This document shows positions 24,001 through 30,000 of a DNA stretch of 64,000 nt, piece after piece (positions within the stretch are counted from its first letter, which is position 1; the number at the start of each line of letters is the position of its first letter). The DNA lies in the NCBI RefSeq assembly GCF_053078305.1, contig NZ_CP166879.1; one strand, written 5' to 3'. A program made the position numbers.

Positions 24001-27000
24001 TTCTTGCTATTACAACTATCTTGTGATTGTTTATATGCTAAACATAATTCTGATGTTTTAGTACATGTAACATATTGACACATTCTTTATCTGTTTGTAT
24101 TTTACGTGTTAGCAGTGTTTTTATTTTGACATTGCTGTTAACAACCGATTGCTGGAGAGGTGAAAATGAATAAAATGTTCAGTCAGTGGATTGATTTTGA
24201 TGAGATGATTACTCCGAAGATCATCAAGGTAATATACTGGTTTTTTCTTTTTATTACAGTGGCCGGTGGTGTTATAGGTATGATAGCCAATCCGTTTGTC
24301 GGACTGCTTGGTCTTATTATGGGTATTATTGGTCTGAGGATTGGGTGTGAAATGATAATTCTTCTTTTTAATATTTATAAGCAGGTTAAAAAGATTGCTG
24401 ATGCGGTACCGGATAAAATAAACGAACAGGCTGAGGATAGTTAATTATCTCAGAATAAACATTGATGAATGGTAATAACAGGGACTGTTAATACTGTCCC
24501 TGTTATTTTTTCTGCAGACTGTTTTCTGTTCTTCCTGGTTATGTTCTGAGTGATGATGATTGACGCCTTTTATACGCTCTGATATGCTCAGAATGCATTA
24601 TCTGTCGCTTCGGCGACCACCAATGCTCCATAAGTGGTCTGAGAGGAGCGCCTTCGGGTGGCCACATCCCGCTTCGGTGGGCACCAATGTTCCGTTGATC
24701 TGAGAGGAACGCCTTCGGGTGATCAACACCCCCGTAACCTGAAAGGGGATGTGCAGCCAGGATGTTTCTGGTGGTGGTAAATCTGCCCACCTTTGAGAGC
24801 AGATATCGTCAGTCATGATGATGAAGGTTTCTTTTAACCGCGCCCTTTATTACGGGCAATACACAGCAGTGGTTGTGTGATCCTTATCTATCCGGTGATG
24901 CCGGAATGTTTTTACTGCGTAATGGCGGTATTGACTTCTTTTATTCTTTTCATTTGTTTGCCAGCACTTCCTGCGACTGTGCGCGCTGTATAAGACCATT
25001 TGAAATTTGGTCGCTTACGCGTGTACCTGGCGTCTGAAGCTGCGCGGCGTCACTTTCGTCAGCGTGTCACGATGACAAAGTGACGCACGCGCGTCTGCTT
25101 AACGAACCCGCACGAACTGCCGTTTCACGTGATGTTTTTTAACATTTGAAGAAGTGACCCGGCGTGAGAGTGTTTTTTCAACCTCTTCTGCAAATTTACG
25201 GACGATTTTGTGAATAACGTCCATAAATGGTTTTTTGCAGAATTAATTGTTTTTTAAGGAGTTTTATGTAGTGAGATGCCGAATCGGCGATACCACTTAT
25301 TAGAGGTGGTGTCGGGGGCGACCTGGAGACAGGTACAGCAAATGCTGCAGTCGGTGTGCAACACCGATTTGTTACCCCTCAATACCTAAACAATCTGCGC
25401 TACCCTGGCGCACAGGCAGTCACTACCCGAAGGATCGCAACGTTTAACCGTGTCGTCAGGGAGAAATGCAGATGAGTTTTTCTGTTGTGTTCACGGCACA
25501 ACAGAAAAACTCATCTGCCGAACGTACAGCTGTTTAAGGTAAAAATTATTATGTGCAGGAGAAGTTGATGTCCAGACGTGAAAAATTACTGAAACAGGAT
25601 CTGGTTGCTCACATTCGAAAAGACAAAGGCAGCTTCAAGAAGCTGAGTGATTACACCAGGATCATGCACCGCTTTGCTGAAAGTCTGGCAAAAATGAATG
25701 TACAGATCAGTTCTGCCGCGCAGGTAAAAGTCCGGCATATTGAGCTATATATGAGAAGCCGGAGTAATGTTTCTGGGCGAACAAGGGAAAATGAAATGTC
25801 TGCAATACGGGTTATGTTACGTCAGGCAGGTAAATATAAGATGGCTGATCCCGAACATCCTCGTCTCAGCAATAAAGCGTTAGGCATTTCCGGCTCCAGT
25901 CGTAAGGGAACAAAAAAATTAATCACGGATGAGCGTTTTCGGGAGATTCTTCAGCGTGTGGAAGCAAAAGATAAAGGGGTGGCTGCTGTTGTTAAACTGT
26001 CACGTTACCTCGGTCTGAGAAATGAAGAAGCTATCCAGTCGGCCAAATCATTACGAACCTGGAAAAAAGCGTTACAACGGGGAGATGAAAAAATAAGAGT
26101 GATTTTTGGTACGAAAGGGGGACGGGAAAGAATGACAACGGTTGTTGACCGGGATAACGTTCTTGATGCTGTTAATTATGCACTCAAATATGCCAGTGAA
26201 CATAATGGACGTCTTATAGACAGAGATAATCTTAAGTCGGCAATGGATTATTATCTTAATACATTACGTCGTTATGGAGAACTGAAAGGCGGAGATGAGA
26301 CTGCACACAGTTTTCGGTACAGTTACGCTGCAAGTGCCATGAAATATCATATTATGAACGGTTACAGTTATAAGGAGGCACTTGCACTGACATCAATTGA
26401 TCTTGGTCATGGTGATGGCAGAGGACGATATATTGAACAGGTTTATTGTCAGTTGTTAGGCTATGAGTAATAACTCATGGCGATTTCGTACGGGTAAATA
26501 TTATGGATTGTACTATTTTGCTGAAAATAATCTCTGTAAAAGAGATTACAAAAAATTCGCCTTTGTGGTCACACTATCTGGCGCGATATGTTGATTCCGG
26601 ATATCAGGCCGAGTTTGAATGTGAAGGAACAGCAGATAAATGGGATATCTATGATGAATGGGACATCTATGAATCCATTGCGGATTATTTTGATGTGGTA
26701 GGAGATTTTAACTGTGATGTCAGATGGTCGGGAAGAAAAATACTGATTAAAGGGACCTGTGTTTTTCCTCTGGGAGAACCCGTTAAGGGAATACATAATA
26801 TTCCTCTTTGGATTGATGTTGAATAACTTGACATTCATCTTTTGTGATTTAAAAATATACAGGCTTATATGTCGCTTCGGCGACCACCAATGCTCCATAA
26901 GTGGTCTGAGAGGAGCGCCTTCGGGTGACCACATCCCGCTTCGGTGGGCACCAATGTTCCGTTGATCTGAGAGGAACGCCTTCGGGTGATCAACACCCCC

Positions 27001-30000
27001 GTAACCTGAAAGGGGATGTGCAGCCAGGATGTTTCTGGTGGTGGTAAATCTGCCCACCTTTGAGAGCAGATATCGTCAGTCATGACGATGAAGGTTTCTT
27101 TATAACTGCGCCCTTTATTAACGGGCTTTTTCTGACAGCAACACCATGCTGTACTGGTGGTGTTTTAACCCTGACGGGAGTTTTTGTCCGTCGGGGCGAA
27201 GGCTCCCGTTTTTTTACAGGAGTCTTTATGTCAACGTTTATTTTGTGCCCTGAACCGGGCATCTCTTCTTTTTTCCGGCGAATGACGGCTCAGTTGCGGG
27301 TGTTTTTTTCCCGCAATAACCTGTCATATTACAGTCGCTGGTACACTAATCCGGCCGGCAATCTGAGCGTGCGGGTCTGTATGTTCCGTCGTGGCGGTGT
27401 CTGGACACCCTGCCTGTATTACCGGCAGGGAATGTATCGCAACGAGTACACAGGATGGTATCAGCCGTTACCGCGTGAGGTCATTTATCTGAACCGGTTT
27501 ACCGGACGGATATCCCGTCGCAGGACATGGCATGCTGCCTGCCGTATGGCGGAGCAACTGACCACCCTGCGTTACCGGTTTGGTCTGCAGGGTGATGGAA
27601 TCGTCGCACAGCCCTGCTGATTTATCATTTATTACCCTGTCGGGAACACGCTTCCCGCAGGGCAGGTGTGTTCCCGTTATTTTTTGTATCTGAGGTGAAC
27701 ACATGCATAGTCTGTTAATACTCCTTTACGTTGTTGTATGGCGTGCCTGCACCATTCTTCGGGTAATCGCACCAGTGTCGGCTGTCCGTGCGTGGTGTGA
27801 GTATCAACTGGAAGGTATGACGATACTTCGTGATGCGTACAGCTCGCTGGCTAAGGCGGCTGGAATGCAGAATGATGCATTTGAATATACTGAAAGTATT
27901 GCACGTCATCTGGGCTACAAAAGCGGTGGTGACCAACTGAAATCAGGACTTTTCCGGCCGTTTCTGTGGCATATACGTGTGAAAGGCCACAGGCTGGGGG
28001 CTGTCATGGAGATGGAGGCATGGAAGACATGGAAGAATGGCTGTAACGATGTCTGCAATCCATGGGAGGATGTCTGTAATCCATGGGAGCGTGGATGGAA
28101 CGATGGCTGGACGGAATGTCTGAATCAACGTATAGCCGGGCTCCTGAAGCAGGCCTGTATTGAATTTTCCGACGCAGACTGACGGGCAGGATGCCAGTCA
28201 GTCACAGGAAGGATGTCAAATCGTGAGCGATGCAACTGCCATTTTGCAATGATGGCTGTTTTGCTCCCGTAACGGTTTTTCTTTTACTTACTGCACCGTG
28301 TTTTTGCGCCGGTGTTTTCCCTGACGGGAGTTTTGTTCCGTCAGGGACAGGACTTCCTTTAAGAGACGGAGGTCATCATGTATTCACCTTTAATTGCTCA
28401 TTATTCAGCGCTTCAGACGCAGTCTGCTCTGCTGGCTCATATCAGTCAGATGGAAGGCGAGCTGATGCGGTTACGTGCCTGGCAACGGCTGGGTATTACC
28501 CCGGAGCCGGATGATGAGACGGAGCCTTCACTGGTATACGTGTATCTGTGGGATACCGGCGAGGCGCTGGGCTGGCTGTTGTATGACCTGGAGCAGGAGG
28601 AGATTTCCGCACCGGGAATTCAGGCCCGTCAGGCACTCGACAGTCTGATGGCTCTGGGGCGTGAAATTAATCATGAAATCTGGGCTGACAGTATCAGTAC
28701 CGGAAAGATGGTGGCCGGAGCGGATGAATATTTTGCCCGGCACGACATGATGTAATTCATGACCTGACTCTGACGGGGGAGTTCTCCGTCCGGGAGACAT
28801 TCCCCGTTGTTTAGTTTTAACCATGAGGAATGTTCCATGTCTGAGTTATCTTCACGTCCGGTCCGTGAGCCGGTGGTATATACCCTTGAGCAGGTTTCCA
28901 CAATACCGGAAAAGCAGTGGCATGCTTTTGTTCTGGCTGTCACTGAAACCTTCTGGCAGTTGCCGGAGGCGTTACGGCCGCAGAATGCGTATTTCGGCTC
29001 CCTGACCCGGGCGTCAGAGTTGTTTCCGGTAACGGACACGCTGGCGTTTTACTGCCGGTCTGCCGACGGGCTGTGGTCGGTGAATGTCACTATTGAGCGG
29101 GAGCACAGCCGGAATATCCTGGCTCTTAATGAGCTGAATTTCGGACGTCAGCCGGGAGATTTCTTTGCCCGTACAGTCTTTGTGCTGTTGCACAATCTGT
29201 GTCCGGACTGTTTTCGTATTCATTCCACTGTCGGTGGTGCCAGCTGGTCGCTGCCGCTGAAATGGATAAAACGGTACCTGGGGCATGAGAATTTTTCTGC
29301 TCCGGAGTCTGTATTAACCACCCCGGTAAGGGGAGATGCGTTTGACAGCTTACTGCTGCAGTTTTTGTCCGGTCAGGGGCGACAGTTATCCCCGGATGAC
29401 TGGGCAGCACTGGAAGAGGCCGAATATCAGCTTTACTGGCTGCGGGCTCTTGCCGGTGGGCGGTAACAGAACGCCGTAGTTTCTTTATCCGGAATAACGT
29501 CATCACGTATTCCGTCATTATATCACCCGGCAGGGACATATCCCTGTGGGGAGAGTCCCGGCTTTATTCAGGAGAATTGTTATGGGACTCGATATTTACT
29601 TTCTGGCTCGTGATAACCATCACAGTGGTGCCGTTGTGGGAACACAGGAACATCAGGAGGTGGGGGCTTTCCGTAAGGTGAAACCGCTTCTGACATGGTT
29701 TCGTGAACATACCGGTGCTTCAGATGAGCAGCATGCTTTCCCTGTAACCCGCAGTTCACTGGCTGCATTATTGCGCGACCTCAGTATGCTGACACCGGGG
29801 AACTGCCACAGGCTGTTTCCTTATGTCACAGGCTCGTGTTTACGGGGGGAAGATTATGCCGGTGATTACTGGTATGACGTGGATGACGTAAAAGCGTGGG
29901 TCAGCAATACGCTGAAGACGTTTGATTTTGAGCGTCGTTCACTGGTGATGCTGGCGTTGTGGTAATTCTGGCCAGTCTGATTTTCGTTATTAATTTAACT

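What the first reader, a model, noticed from the sequence alone, without database searches (positions are those of the whole stretch)
24603..27120. Tyrosine recombinase bracketed by ~250-bp direct repeats rich in UUCG-type tetraloop hairpins
Two near-identical ~250-bp direct repeats (24603..24852 and 26870..27120) flank a 2-kb segment carrying a tyrosine recombinase gene (25568..26470) and a 107-aa ORF. Each repeat holds two ~60-bp sub-repeats and at least four hairpins closed by C(TTCG)G tetraloops. Such hairpins are a hallmark of structured RNA and are unusual for simple att core sites. Direct-repeat geometry means recombination would excise the recombinase segment as a circle. This could be a small excisable element, a recombinase-controlled switch, or a recombinase paired with a structured ncRNA; none of these is resolved by the sequence alone.
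Basis: partly seen in the sequence, partly recalled or inferred. Interest (0 to 1): 0.8.

Follow-up and report, generated by a model that had tools for sequence, protein, structure and literature searches.

The report
Conjugation nicking module with partner RNAs
The "recombinase between two repeats" is most likely the DNA-nicking (relaxase) module of a conjugative island in E. coli; the repeats are two copies of the known STAXI RNA gene, and this links two orphan RNA families (STAXI, EFASI) to conjugative DNA transfer.

Summary
Two 237-262-nt direct repeats (98-99% identical) flank a 300-aa tyrosine-recombinase-fold gene. The interpretation changes.

- **Repeats:** both are full-length matches to the Rfam family STAXI (RF01728). 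The family EFASI (RF02957) lies between the left copy and the gene.
- **Gene:** it belongs to Pfam PF12835, the family of MpsA, the tyrosine-recombinase-like "atypical relaxase" of Salmonella Genomic Island 1 (MOB_M class). It is 52% identical to the SGI-4 protein that a 2026 preprint used as a MOB_M seed.
- **Context:** the window is an MPF-G conjugative element inserted at tRNA-Phe.
- **Conservation:** across 80 related loci, EFASI sits 46-176 nt upstream of 75 of 78 such genes. A hairpin with an invariant 9-bp stem and covarying flanking pairs, my oriT candidate, was found in nearly all loci checked. STAXI copies with their own fixed-position promoters flank the gene in the ICE-type loci.
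- **Hitchers:** the STAXI-hairpin-EFASI block without the gene sits on four unrelated small plasmids and in the O157 tellurite island.

This layout parallels SGI1, where the order is promoter, primary RNA, oriT, essential sRNA, mpsA. The repeats are RNA genes, not att sites. One related locus lacks exactly the segment between them, which homologous recombination explains as well as site-specific excision.

The parts
24560..24588 (+). Promoter of the left STAXI copy (TTGACG-17-TATGCT)
   Evidence: Promoter scan. A promoter at the same fixed distance is seen upstream of STAXI copies in unrelated flanking sequence: 52 of 103 non-redundant starts score at least 9/12 against 2.6% of controls, and in 42 of those 52 the -10 ends 16-18 nt before the model start.
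24603..24768 (+). STAXI RNA, left copy (the direct repeat runs 24598-24857)
   Evidence: Rfam RF01728, 90.9 bits against a gathering score of 40.5. The pseudoknot 5-mers covary across loci: 21 of 29 distinct combinations are fully paired against 15% of controls. Loops are TTCG in 92 of 112 units.
24891..24912 (+). Terminator-like hairpin plus T-run after the left STAXI copy
   Evidence: Terminator scan. It is analogous in position to the terminator-like inverted repeat near the start of the SGI1 primary RNA (PMC9299015). Function is inferred.
24976..25012 (+). Conserved sequence box (..CTGCGAC..TATAAG.CCATTTG..ATTTGG)
   Evidence: Conservation profile of 42 non-redundant loci. It also marks the left edge of homology with L003, L005 and the small plasmids, near 24967.
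25037..25095 (.). Long hairpin or inverted repeat with an invariant 9-bp stem GCGTCACTT / AAGTGACGC (arms at 25046-25055 and 25078-25087); candidate oriT core
   Evidence: Found about 310-570 nt upstream of the gene: by a strict pattern in 32 of 78 loci, and in 26 of 27 further loci checked with a relaxed pattern. The pairs flanking the invariant stem covary (outer: G-C, C-G, A-T, T-A; inner: T-A, G-C, C-G). The single-stranded DNA fold has z = -5.7 on the + strand and -4.5 on the - strand. The local stretch 24967-25110 is 56% GC against 36-44% for its immediate neighbours. The oriT role is inferred from the position of oriT in SGI1, pIGRK and SGI-4.
25268..25425 (+). EFASI RNA
   Evidence: Rfam RF02957, 53.2 bits against a gathering score of 51.2; nhmmer 98.5 bits. 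EFASI lies 46-176 nt upstream of 75 of 78 PF12835 genes, including islands that have no STAXI.
25440..25466 (+). Conserved box after EFASI (..ACCGTGTCGTC.GGGA)
   Evidence: Conservation profile.
25468..25518 (+). Perfect 22-bp hairpin with a 7-nt loop, 50 nt before the start codon
   Evidence: L003 keeps it through two compensatory double changes. Fold z = -9.4. It is analogous in position to the inverted repeat just upstream of mpsA, where the SGI1 primary RNA ends or is cleaved.
25568..26470 (+). Gene for a MOB_M-type (MpsA-like, tyrosine-recombinase-fold) putative relaxase; annotated in RefSeq as 'integrase domain-containing protein' (WP_000091033.1)
   Evidence: PF12835 at 5e-55 and PF12834 at 5.5e-22. 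R151, K183, H247, R250, H281, Y288 and Y293 are invariant in 23 homologues. 52% identical (E 3e-112) to SGI-4 WP_033567157.1, a MOB_M seed in the 2026 preprint. A profile comparison with SGI1 MpsA gives 94% probability, E 1.3e-7. The best Pfam hit of MpsA is also PF12835.
26503..26826 (+). 107-aa ORF of unknown function, not conserved outside close E. coli relatives
   Evidence: tblastn found it in only one of the other loci, L003. L005 has a different 145-aa ORF in its place.
26828..26856 (+). Promoter of the right STAXI copy (TTGACA-17-AAAAAT)
   Evidence: This 'right-type' promoter is conserved in many loci.
26870..27035 (+). STAXI RNA, right copy (the direct repeat runs 26865-27126)
   Evidence: Rfam RF01728, 93.6 bits.
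27173..27217 (+). Strong intrinsic-terminator-like hairpin (17 pairs plus T7) after the right STAXI copy, just before the next ORF (27228-27620)
   Evidence: Terminator scan.

Best explanation
The locus is the DNA-processing (mobilisation) module of an MPF-G integrative conjugative element inserted at tRNA-Phe.

**The gene.** The ORF at 25568-26470 is not the element's integrase. That is the P4-type gene at 55446-56480. This ORF is a MOB_M relaxase, a tyrosine-recombinase-fold enzyme of the MpsA / MobK / TcpM kind. Such an enzyme nicks the origin of transfer rather than recombining two sites.

**The leader.** About 1 kb of non-coding sequence lies upstream, in the same order as the SGI1 mobilisation module:
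1. a sigma-70 promoter;
2. a structured 5' RNA (STAXI) followed by a terminator-like hairpin;
3. a GC-rich long hairpin with an invariant 9-bp stem, which I take to be the oriT core recognised by the relaxase;
4. a second structured RNA (EFASI) directly before the gene, in the position of the essential sgm-sRNA of SGI1.

**The second repeat.** It is a second promoter-driven STAXI gene at the head of the next gene block, which holds five small ORFs, ArdC, DUF1281 and a methylase.

**The repeats.** The two 'direct repeats' are therefore paralogous RNA genes. Because they are nearly identical in E. coli they can recombine homologously and delete the relaxase module, as seen in L004.

**Hitchers.** Small plasmids and islands that carry STAXI-hairpin-EFASI without the gene would be oriT-only hitchers, mobilised in trans.

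**What is shown and what is inferred.**
- Shown: family memberships, conserved architecture, promoters, base-pair covariation, presence/absence variants.
- Taken from the literature on relatives: relaxase activity, oriT lying upstream of the gene, and an RNA requirement.
- Inferred: that the hairpin is the nick region, and that EFASI and STAXI RNAs act in relaxosome function or its control.
For: **Protein family.**
- PF12835 at 5e-55. PF12835 is the signature used for MpsA-like 'INT_DTR' proteins (PMC10484663).
- MpsA itself hits PF12835 best, at 1.1e-10, and aligns to the family profile with 94% probability.
- 52% identity to SGI-4 WP_033567157.1, which the preprint 10.64898/2026.01.13.699239 lists as a MOB_M seed.

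**Context.** The window order is T4SS genes, module, ArdC, DUF1281, methylase, UvrD, TraI, P4-type integrase, tRNA-Phe. The same synteny holds in dozens of loci.

**Architecture.**
- EFASI is upstream of 75 of 78 family genes, including P4-like islands without STAXI.
- The hairpin has an invariant stem and covarying flanks.
- STAXI promoters sit at a fixed position.

**SGI1 parallel.** Promoter ttgacg-16-taatat, then a 650-700-nt primary RNA with an early terminator-like repeat, then oriT, then the essential sRNA core, then an inverted repeat, then mpsA (PMC6414798 and PMC9299015).

**Hitchers.**
- The block without the gene is on four unrelated small plasmids and in the O157 tellurite/urease island.
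- Two of those plasmids share nothing else.
- The preprint calls the O157 TAI islands oriT-only elements whose oriT resembles that of SGI-4.

**Transcription.** STAXI and EFASI transcripts have been detected by RT-qPCR and RNA-seq (PMC12370729, PMC4710047).
Against: - No nicking, transfer or RNA-requirement data exist for this subfamily in what I could read. The paper localising the SGI-4 oriT (Neupane et al. 2025) is not held, so I do not know whether its oriT is the hairpin, STAXI or something else.
- The element also encodes a MOB_H-type TraI (53897-55375). Which protein is the working relaxase is open.
- Neither Rfam's EFASI and STAXI models nor my own nhmmer profiles find anything significant in the SGI1 mob region. 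The RNA parallel is therefore positional, not homology.
- All catalytic residues of a tyrosine recombinase are intact, so true recombination is not excluded.
- The role of the second STAXI copy is unexplained.
Confidence: 0.7

Rival explanations
1. The protein is a working site-specific recombinase that uses the two STAXI repeats as its sites and excises the 2.27-kb segment as a circle, making a mini integrative cassette or switch.
For: - L004 lacks exactly the segment between the repeats and keeps one repeat.
- L005 has about 99% identical flanks but a different cassette, with a protein only 40% identical.
- Cargo of 7-9.6 kb lies between the gene and the right STAXI copy in L034, L041, L057 and L060.
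- The catalytic residues are intact.
- Erwinia oleae has five copies.
- Over long evolutionary distances the left and right copies of one locus resemble each other more than those of distant loci.
Against: - Left and right copies are 77-92% identical in most loci and behave as separate orthologous lineages at short range: left to left in 49 of 52 loci, right to right in 44 of 52.
- Each copy has its own promoter and RNA-type covariation.
- The cassette-swap boundaries (about 25059 and 26826) are not at equivalent positions of the two repeats.
- The module sits at one syntenic backbone position of the ICE family rather than at varied sites.
- The gene family occurs without STAXI.
- 260-bp repeats that are 98-99% identical are good substrates for RecA, which explains L004.
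Confidence: 0.1
2. The STAXI arrays act as DNA. They would be the origins of transfer, two per element as reported for ICEclc, or single-strand initiation sites for complementary-strand synthesis, folding as hairpins in the transferred or displaced strand. Their transcription would be incidental or merely activating.
For: - Weinberg et al. raised the single-stranded DNA option.
- ICEclc, of the same ICE family, is reported to have two oriTs.
- By BLAST, the only similarity between the O157 island and SGI-4 lies inside STAXI, and the preprint says their oriT regions are alike.
- STAXI tracks the MPF-G/TraI context: 51 of 54 loci against 6 of 24.
- It sits on a rolling-circle plasmid, which needs a single-strand origin.
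- The MobK paper argues that tyrosine-recombinase-like relaxases need extra priming sites and places one just downstream of mobK.
Against: - A sigma-70 promoter sits at a fixed 16-18 nt before the model start, in unrelated flanks.
- UNCG tetraloops occur in 102 of 112 units, which stabilises RNA but not DNA.
- 13 G-U pairs are scored on this strand in the pseudoknot 5-mers.
- Transcripts have been detected.
- The DNA fold of one unit is no better than shuffled sequence, z about -0.9 on either strand.
- On the rolling-circle plasmid the STAXI sense strand is opposite to rep.
Confidence: 0.15
3. STAXI is an independent trans-acting small RNA of the element's establishment or leading region, for example a protein sponge, a regulator or an anti-defence decoy. 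Its position on both sides of the relaxase gene would be a by-product of operon organisation, with no role in DNA processing.
For: - Each copy has its own promoter and terminator.
- The right copy heads the block with ArdC and a methylase.
- A single STAXI copy persists where the relaxase module is absent, in L004 and L006.
- Two or three tandem pseudoknot units resemble decoy or sponge RNAs. This last point is my own knowledge, not tested here.
Against: - In the small plasmids and the O157 island STAXI travels together with the hairpin and EFASI as one block. This points to a shared function in cis.
- No target or partner was identified.
Confidence: 0.15

Closest known systems
mobSGI1 module of Salmonella Genomic Island 1 (oriT, sgm-sRNA, MpsA, MpsB; Kiss 2019 PMC6414798; Nagy 2021 PMC9299015)
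   Same: - The relaxase candidate is in the same Pfam family: PF12835 is the best hit of both, and the profile match has 94% probability.
- The order is the same: strong promoter (ttgacg-16-taatat there; TTGACG-17-TATGCT or TAATAT-type here), structured 5' RNA with an early terminator-like repeat, GC-rich inverted-repeat region, sRNA directly upstream of the gene, a hairpin before the start codon, then the gene.
   Different: - There is no detectable sequence or covariance-model similarity between sgm-sRNA and EFASI or STAXI.
- There is no conserved MpsB-like second gene. Here an N-terminal SAM-like domain (PF12834) is part of the protein.
- The host is a self-transmissible MPF-G ICE that also has TraI, not an IME parasitising IncC plasmids.
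- There is a second STAXI copy downstream.
- The leader is about 980 nt rather than about 750 nt.
MOB_M relaxase of ICE SGI-4 (WP_033567157.1) and its oriT region; 'oriT-only' TAI islands of E. coli O157:H7 (bioRxiv 10.64898/2026.01.13.699239; Neupane 2025)
   Same: - The protein is 52% identical over its full length.
- The synteny is the same: TraG, module, ArdC, DUF1281, methylase.
- The order STAXI, EFASI, gene, STAXI is the same in SGI-4.
- The O157 island L089 has STAXI-hairpin-EFASI without the gene.
   Different: The parts of the preprint I read describe an 'oriT region' upstream of the relaxase. They do not mention STAXI, EFASI, promoters or an RNA requirement. The SGI-4 oriT paper could not be read, so the overlap with that work is unknown.
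STAXI (RF01728, Weinberg 2010) and EFASI (RF02957) RNA motifs
   Same: Both are full matches above the gathering score. The known association (STAXI, then a few hundred nt, then EFASI, then an 'integrase') is exactly what is here.
   Different: Rfam and the motif paper give no function and call the neighbouring gene an XerDC-type integrase. This analysis adds the following:
- the 'integrase' belongs to the MpsA/MOB_M family;
- a second STAXI copy regularly follows the gene;
- a conserved hairpin lies between the two RNAs;
- EFASI tracks the gene family more widely than STAXI does.
MobK/oriT of Klebsiella plasmid pIGRK and TcpM/oriT of pCW3 (tyrosine-recombinase-like relaxases)
   Same: The enzymes have a tyrosine-recombinase fold, and oriT lies immediately upstream of the relaxase gene. 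For MobK the catalytic tyrosine is required for nicking.
   Different: Those proteins are much shorter or lack the core-binding domain. No partner RNA has been described for them. I did not test sequence similarity to them here.
Integrative elements that target tRNA, tmRNA or sRNA genes and duplicate part of the gene as attL/attR
   Same: Direct repeats that are copies of a structured RNA gene flank a tyrosine-recombinase-fold gene.
   Different: - The repeats are whole promoter-driven genes that have diverged from each other in most loci.
- The module has a fixed backbone position.
- The element's real att site and integrase are at tRNA-Phe, 30 kb away.

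Membership tests
STAXI RNA (Rfam RF01728) | Covariance-model score at or above the gathering score (40.5 bits) over the full model | tested here: met
   90.9 bits (24603-24768) and 93.6 bits (26870-27035), model positions 1-153 of 153.
STAXI RNA (Rfam RF01728) | Two to three tandem pseudoknot units with UUCG-type loops | tested here: met
   There are two clear units plus a degenerate third (alignment). The pseudoknot pairs are GCUCC/GGAGC in unit 1 and GUUCC/GGAAC in unit 2. 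Across loci 21 of 29 distinct 5-mer combinations are fully paired against 15% of controls. Loops are TTCG in 92 and TACG in 10 of 112 units.
EFASI RNA (Rfam RF02957) | Score at or above the gathering score (51.2 bits); located downstream of STAXI and upstream of an 'integrase' gene | tested here: met
   53.2 bits at 25268-25425, only just above threshold; 98.5 bits with an nhmmer profile built from related loci. It lies 500 nt after the STAXI model end and 142 nt before the start codon.
MOB_M relaxases (MpsA / MobK / TcpM; tyrosine-recombinase-like) | Sequence homology to known members | tested here: met
   PF12835 at 5e-55. The best Pfam hit of MpsA is PF12835, at 1.1e-10. hhalign of MpsA against the family alignment gives 94% probability, E 1.3e-7. 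52% identity, E 3e-112, to WP_033567157.1, a MOB_M seed. MobK and TcpM were not compared.
MOB_M relaxases (MpsA / MobK / TcpM; tyrosine-recombinase-like) | Conserved catalytic tyrosine and the Arg/His set of the tyrosine-recombinase fold | tested here: met
   R151, K183, H247, R250, H281, Y288 and Y293 are invariant in 23 homologues.
MOB_M relaxases (MpsA / MobK / TcpM; tyrosine-recombinase-like) | Genomic context: in an MPF-G ICE or a relaxase-only island, near a true integrase, with oriT between the MPF genes and the relaxase gene | tested here: met
   The window has TIGR037xx T4SS genes, TraG, TraI, a P4-type integrase and tRNA-Phe. Distant members lie next to P4-type integrases in islands. 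The position of oriT itself is inferred.
MOB_M relaxases (MpsA / MobK / TcpM; tyrosine-recombinase-like) | Site-specific nicking of a cognate oriT, and requirement for conjugative transfer | not testable with these tools
   This needs mating assays and in-vitro nicking. The candidate site is the hairpin at 25037-25095.
SGI1-type mobilisation module with an essential sRNA (sgm-sRNA) | An sRNA encoded between oriT and the relaxase gene, made from a long primary transcript that starts at a strong upstream promoter | tested here: inconclusive
   The positional equivalents are present: promoter, STAXI, terminator-like hairpin, oriT-candidate hairpin, EFASI, hairpin before the start codon. No homology to the SGI1 RNA was found. 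Transcript ends and RNA requirement were not testable.
SGI1-type mobilisation module with an essential sRNA (sgm-sRNA) | A small MpsB partner protein encoded after the relaxase gene | tested here: not met
   The 107-aa ORF has no family match and is not conserved. L005 and SGI-4 carry unrelated ORFs in its place. The protein carries its own N-terminal PF12834 domain.
Site-specific integrative or excisive element with attL/attR at the direct repeats | The two repeats are recombination sites that share an identical core and bound a mobile unit found at varied target sites | tested here: not met
   Left and right copies are 77-92% identical in most loci, with no shared boundary. Left and right form separate lineages. 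The module has one syntenic position in the ICE backbone. The gene occurs without STAXI. L004 shows an empty site but homologous recombination explains it.

The most novel reading that the evidence does not exclude
MOB_M (tyrosine-recombinase-like) relaxases of Enterobacterales may generally work as RNA-dependent relaxosomes. EFASI, and in MPF-G elements also STAXI, would be made from a promoter that fires across the oriT hairpin and would be an obligatory partner of the enzyme. The RNA might be a scaffold or specificity factor at the hairpin. Alternatively it might be the primer for replacement-strand synthesis. A tyrosine-recombinase-type enzyme is expected to attach to the 3' end of the nick, so no free 3'-OH would be left to prime from. 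This would give a function to two orphan Rfam families. It would also turn the single SGI1 sgm-sRNA observation into a widespread RNA-assisted mode of conjugative DNA processing.
Probability: 0.3. Interest if true: 0.8.

Novelty: new member of a known kind. Interest (0 to 1): 0.55.

Why it matters
STAXI (described in 2010) and EFASI (2017) are conserved structured RNAs with no known function, and their neighbouring gene has been read as an XerC/D-type integrase. If that gene is a MOB_M relaxase and the RNAs frame its oriT, several things follow.

1. Two orphan RNA families become directly testable, by mating assays with promoter, hairpin and RNA mutants.
2. [quoted passage not shown]
3. Small "non-mobilisable" plasmids and pathogenicity islands that carry the block, such as the O157 tellurite/adherence island, can be predicted to ride on MPF-G elements. 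STAXI and EFASI matches then become cheap markers for such hitchers.
4. Genome annotation of these genes as "integrase" is misleading.

Tried and rejected
- **NCBIfam and PHROGs** on the protein, the 107-aa ORF and neighbours gave no informative family.
- **Integrated small plasmid.** I looked for one behind the LysE/methyltransferase cargo of L006 by comparing it with plasmid L090. Only the STAXI region is similar.
- **A second copy of the hairpin arm** near the right boundary of the variable segment would be needed for cassette exchange by site-specific recombination. There is none in the window: 5 hits at one mismatch or fewer against 3.4 expected, and only the two arms themselves are relevant.
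- **Frpo-like single-stranded-DNA promoter.** The STAXI stems are too short to rebuild -35 and -10 boxes, and the promoter is an ordinary linear one, so I dropped this idea (reasoning).
- **Type III toxin-antitoxin reading** (tandem pseudoknot antitoxin followed by a terminator and a toxin). I dropped it because the ORF after STAXI is not conserved.
- **EFASI or STAXI in the SGI1 mob region.** Rfam models at E up to 1 and my own nhmmer profiles found nothing significant.
- **Papers not held.** I tried to read Miyazaki & van der Meer 2011 (ICEclc oriTs) and Neupane et al. 2025 (SGI-4 oriT); neither is held.
- **Minimum-free-energy folding of a whole STAXI copy** gave only z = -1.8, because pseudoknots are not modelled. 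It is therefore not informative.

Full report
**1. What is in the sequence**

They are 24598-24834 and 26865-27101: 237 nt, 99% identical without gaps. With one indel they extend to 24598-24857 and 26865-27126. Each holds two ~60-nt sub-repeats and four C(TTCG)G hairpins. Between them lie a 300-aa ORF (25568-26470) and a 107-aa ORF (26503-26826).

**2. The repeats and a third element are catalogued RNA families**

A scan of the whole window against Rfam at gathering thresholds gave five matches. Both repeats are full-length STAXI RNA (RF01728): 90.9 and 93.6 bits against a threshold of 40.5. EFASI RNA (RF02957, 53.2 against 51.2 bits) lies at 25268-25425, between the left repeat and the ORF.

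STAXI was described by Weinberg et al. (2010) as a tandem pseudoknot motif. It lies near genes for single-strand-binding proteins, topoisomerases, antirestriction proteins and 'XerDC integrases'. Its function is unknown, and whether it acts as RNA or as single-stranded DNA was left open. EFASI is named for being 'frequently around STAXI and integrases'. Transcripts of both have been detected by RT-qPCR in STEC vesicles, and STAXI transcripts by RNA-seq in Pectobacterium.

**3. Genomic context**

The window is nearly identical to a chromosomal island of E. coli O22:H8 strain 154. It is an integrative conjugative element of the ICEclc/PAPI-1 (MPF-G) type. In window coordinates, the order is:

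| Feature | Coordinates |
|---|---|
| T4SS genes | 2953-7212 |
| Cargo, including a two-partner secretion system | between |
| The module | 24560-27217 |
| Five small ORFs | 27228-29962 |
| ArdC | 30058-31029 |
| DUF1281 | 31149-32093 |
| N6-methylase | 32208-32891 |
| Further cargo | between |
| UvrD-like helicase | 52414-53901 |
| TraI | 53897-55375 |
| P4-type integrase | 55446-56480 |
| tRNA-Phe | 56682-56754 |

The element's own integrase and attachment site are therefore 30 kb away from the finding.

**4. The arrangement is a conserved unit**

I collected 80 loci encoding relatives of the ORF, from one genome per species. I located STAXI and EFASI with Rfam on a sample and with nhmmer profiles on all of them.

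- In about 50 loci from Citrobacter, Serratia, Yersinia, Photorhabdus, Proteus, Providencia, Erwinia, Pantoea, Pectobacterium, Brenneria and others the order is STAXI, EFASI, gene, STAXI, all on one strand.
- The spacing between the two STAXI copies is usually 1.8-2.8 kb. It is 7-9.6 kb in four loci that carry cargo after the gene.
- The module always occupies the same backbone position, between the T4SS/TraG genes and ArdC…TraI…integrase.

**5. The repeats are not att sites**

- In most loci the left and right copies are only 77-92% identical. Near-identity is a peculiarity of E. coli, Proteus/Providencia and some Pectobacterium.
- At short evolutionary range, left copies are closest to left copies of other loci (49 of 52) and right to right (44 of 52). 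Only at long range do the two copies of one locus resemble each other more, which indicates occasional homogenisation.
- Upstream of STAXI copies, in otherwise unrelated sequence, there is a sigma-70 promoter. Of 103 non-redundant starts, 52 score at least 9/12 against 2.6% of control windows. The -10 ends 16-18 nt before the model start in 42 of those 52. In the window these promoters are TTGACG-17-TATGCT (24560-24588) and TTGACA-17-AAAAAT (26828-26856).
- The pseudoknot 5-mers covary: 21 of 29 distinct combinations are fully paired against 15% after re-pairing. Thirteen G-U pairs are scored on this strand. Loops are UUCG or UACG in 102 of 112 units.

STAXI therefore behaves as a transcribed, strand-specific structured RNA gene present in two paralogous copies.

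**6. Presence/absence and swap variants**

- L004 (another E. coli element) has both flanks and a single STAXI copy. It lacks exactly the 2.27 kb between the repeats.
- L005 has about 99% identical flanks but a different EFASI, a protein only 40% identical and a different small ORF. The variable segment runs from about 25059 to about 26826, which are not equivalent points of the two repeats.

Both variants can be explained by homologous recombination in conserved sequence. They do not require site-specific recombination and do not exclude it.

**7. What the protein is**

Pfam assigns it to Integrase_1 (PF12835, 5e-55) with an N-terminal PF12834 domain. The tyrosine-recombinase catalytic set is invariant in 23 homologues. 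NCBIfam and PHROGs add nothing. The literature is decisive on four points.

- PF12835 is the signature that the Burrus and Rodrigue groups use for 'INT_DTR-like' proteins. These are MpsA-like proteins, after the atypical relaxase of Salmonella Genomic Island 1 (PMC10484663).
- I recovered the SGI1 mobilisation region using a knockout primer from the MpsA paper. The best Pfam hit of MpsA is indeed PF12835 at 1.1e-10. MpsA aligns to the family profile with 94% probability, including the GLRxEE and GTKGGR motifs.
- A 2026 preprint from a survey of conjugative islands builds a MOB_M profile for the TcpM/MobK/MpsA class. [quoted passage not shown] - One of that preprint's four seed proteins, WP_033567157.1 of ICE SGI-4, is the gene at the equivalent position of L092. 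It is 52% identical to the window protein over the full length, E 3e-112.

More distant members of my set lie in non-conjugative islands beside a P4-type integrase. In the loci scanned with Rfam they also lie near a tRNA or tmRNA gene, often with C4 and isrK RNAs nearby. This fits the 'relaxase-only island' category.

**8. The non-coding leader**

An alignment of the region between the left STAXI copy and the gene, in 42 non-redundant loci, shows conserved blocks. The strongest is a long hairpin (window 25037-25095) with an invariant 9-bp stem, GCGTCACTT / AAGTGACGC.

- The base pairs on either side of the invariant part covary. The outer pair is G-C, C-G, A-T or T-A. The inner pair is T-A, G-C or C-G.
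- It was found by a strict pattern in 32 of 78 loci and in 26 of 27 further loci checked with a relaxed pattern, 310-570 nt upstream of the gene. This includes the loci without STAXI.
- It folds very stably as single-stranded DNA on either strand, z = -5.7 and -4.5.
- The local stretch 24967-25110 is 56% GC, against 36-44% for its immediate neighbours and 48% for the window as a whole.

EFASI follows. It ends 46-176 nt (median 113) before the start codon in 75 of 78 loci. In the STAXI-less islands it scores 90-113 bits. A variable hairpin lies just before the ribosome-binding site. In the window it is a perfect 22-bp stem at 25468-25518, and L003 keeps it through two compensatory double changes.

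The core of the unit is therefore hairpin, EFASI, gene. STAXI is an addition typical of the MPF-G ICE lineage: 51 of 54 loci against 6 of 24.

**9. Parallel with SGI1**

In SGI1 the essential elements are as follows (PMC6414798, PMC9299015):

1. promoter P5 (ttgacg-16-taatat);
2. a 650-700-nt primary RNA, most of which stops at a GC-rich terminator-like repeat about 70 nt in;
3. the 125-bp GC-rich oriT with inverted repeats;
4. the functional core of the sgm-sRNA between oriT and mpsA;
5. an inverted repeat just upstream of mpsA, where the RNA ends or is cleaved;
6. mpsA and mpsB.

The window has a promoter of the same type, STAXI with a terminator-like hairpin (24891-24912), the hairpin region, EFASI, a hairpin and the gene. 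The resemblance is in position and logic. Rfam's EFASI and STAXI models, and my own profiles, find nothing significant in the SGI1 region. There is also no conserved MpsB-like ORF here.

**10. Hitchers**

The block STAXI-hairpin-EFASI, without the gene, occurs in several places:

- a 3.1-kb rolling-circle plasmid of E. coli (L087);
- a 5.3-kb E. coli plasmid (L090);
- a 5.6-kb Pantoea plasmid (L088);
- a 5.9-kb Rahnella plasmid (L091);
- the tellurite/urease island of E. coli O157:H7 (L089).

L087 and L090 share nothing but this ~930-bp block, at 94-96% identity. The block begins 4 nt before STAXI and ends about 64 nt after EFASI, and each plasmid supplies its own promoter in front. PLSDB types three of them as non-mobilisable.

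The preprint independently classes the O157 TAI islands as oriT-only elements whose oriT region resembles the experimentally localised oriT of SGI-4. By BLAST, the only similarity I find between that island and SGI-4 lies in STAXI. This supports an oriT function for the block as a whole. It leaves open which part is the nick region.

**11. Mechanism proposed, and its status**

- Shown: family memberships, architecture, promoters, covariation and variants.
- Taken from relatives: the protein nicks an oriT that lies upstream of its gene, and in SGI1 an RNA from this region is essential.
- Inferred: the invariant hairpin is the site the relaxase recognises; EFASI, and in ICEs STAXI, are made from the promoter at 24560-24588 and act in relaxosome assembly, control or priming.

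The MobK paper points out that a tyrosine-recombinase-type enzyme would remain on the 3' end of the nick. Replacement synthesis would then need another primer or single-strand origin. A promoter-driven structured RNA crossing oriT is a candidate for that role. This is speculation.

The right STAXI copy heads the next gene block and ends at a strong terminator (27173-27217). Its role is unexplained.

**12. Rivals**

The evidence in section 5 weighs against it.
- STAXI acting as DNA, either as a second type of oriT (ICEclc is reported to have two oriTs) or as a single-strand initiation site, remains possible. The observation supports it. The promoters, UNCG loops and G-U pairs argue for RNA.
- STAXI as an unrelated trans-acting sRNA is possible. 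It does not explain why STAXI travels with the hairpin and EFASI on hitcher plasmids.

**13. Novelty and verdict**

Each piece is already catalogued: STAXI (2010), EFASI (2017), MpsA with its sRNA (2019 and 2021), MOB_M relaxases in MPF-G ICEs (2026 preprint), and an SGI-4 oriT (2025, unread). This locus is a new member of a known kind.

I did not find the connection between the pieces in any paper I could search. STAXI as a biological term appears in three held papers and EFASI in one, and none of them concerns relaxases. The connection is that the two orphan RNA motifs frame the oriT of a MOB_M relaxase and stand where SGI1 has its essential sRNA. It is a testable lead rather than a demonstrated result, so the interest is moderate.

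Noticed in passing
window 47733-47935 (+): Full-length match to the Gammaproteobacterial sRNA STnc100 (RF02076, 137 bits) inside the cargo part of the element. The same RNA was the only one found in vesicles of both STEC strains in PMC12370729.
   Followed up: no
window 5715-7212 (+): The TraG N-terminal-domain conjugation gene matches its homologue in two overlapping pieces (5715-6287 and 6283-7212). This suggests a frameshift near 6285, so this copy of the element may be transfer-defective.
   Followed up: no
window 28048-28089 (+): A tandem 21-nt repeat (two copies, 95% identical) lies inside the 159-aa ORF at 27703-28182. It encodes a duplicated CN(D)VCNPWE(R) peptide.
   Followed up: no
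window 20843-22582 (-): The cargo includes a ShlB/FhaC-type two-partner secretion transporter (this ORF). In related elements a haemagglutinin-repeat protein, a toxin-activating acyltransferase and Hcp/DUF2778 genes lie nearby. This is a virulence-type load, like the LAA-type islands of LEE-negative STEC (from memory, not tested).
   Followed up: partly
L071, L074, L080, L081 (e.g. L074 8317-8506): In the STAXI-less islands the relaxase-like gene with EFASI lies 1-9 kb from a pair of isrK and C4 antisense RNAs, typical of P4-like satellites. It also lies next to a tRNA gene (tmRNA in L079). These look like mobilisable P4-type islands, and L071 carries a type I restriction-modification system.
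   Followed up: partly
L080 15168-16901 (-): A second, inverted module lies 6 kb from the first. It has STAXI (44.8 bits), the hairpin (16339-16379), EFASI (109.5 bits) and a 400-aa XerC-like ORF. L072/L073 (Affinibrenneria) also have two gene copies 6.6 kb apart, and Erwinia oleae has five copies on separate contigs.
   Followed up: no
L002 8471-8762 and L005 5049-5340: In these E. coli elements the right STAXI array carries one extra unit compared with the window, so the number of tandem units changes between close relatives.
   Followed up: partly
L094 2746-2880 (SGI1, between oriT and mpsA): The region that encodes the sgm-sRNA core contains two C(UUCG)G hairpins. It also contains a hairpin followed by ACCAGCCAAUGG, which resembles the start of a STAXI unit. 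No profile match reaches significance.
   Followed up: partly
L093 11791-17357: In a Citrobacter element recorded as a circular 72-kb molecule, a lacI-lacZ-lacY operon sits directly after the relaxase-like gene, where the right STAXI copy is normally found.
   Followed up: no
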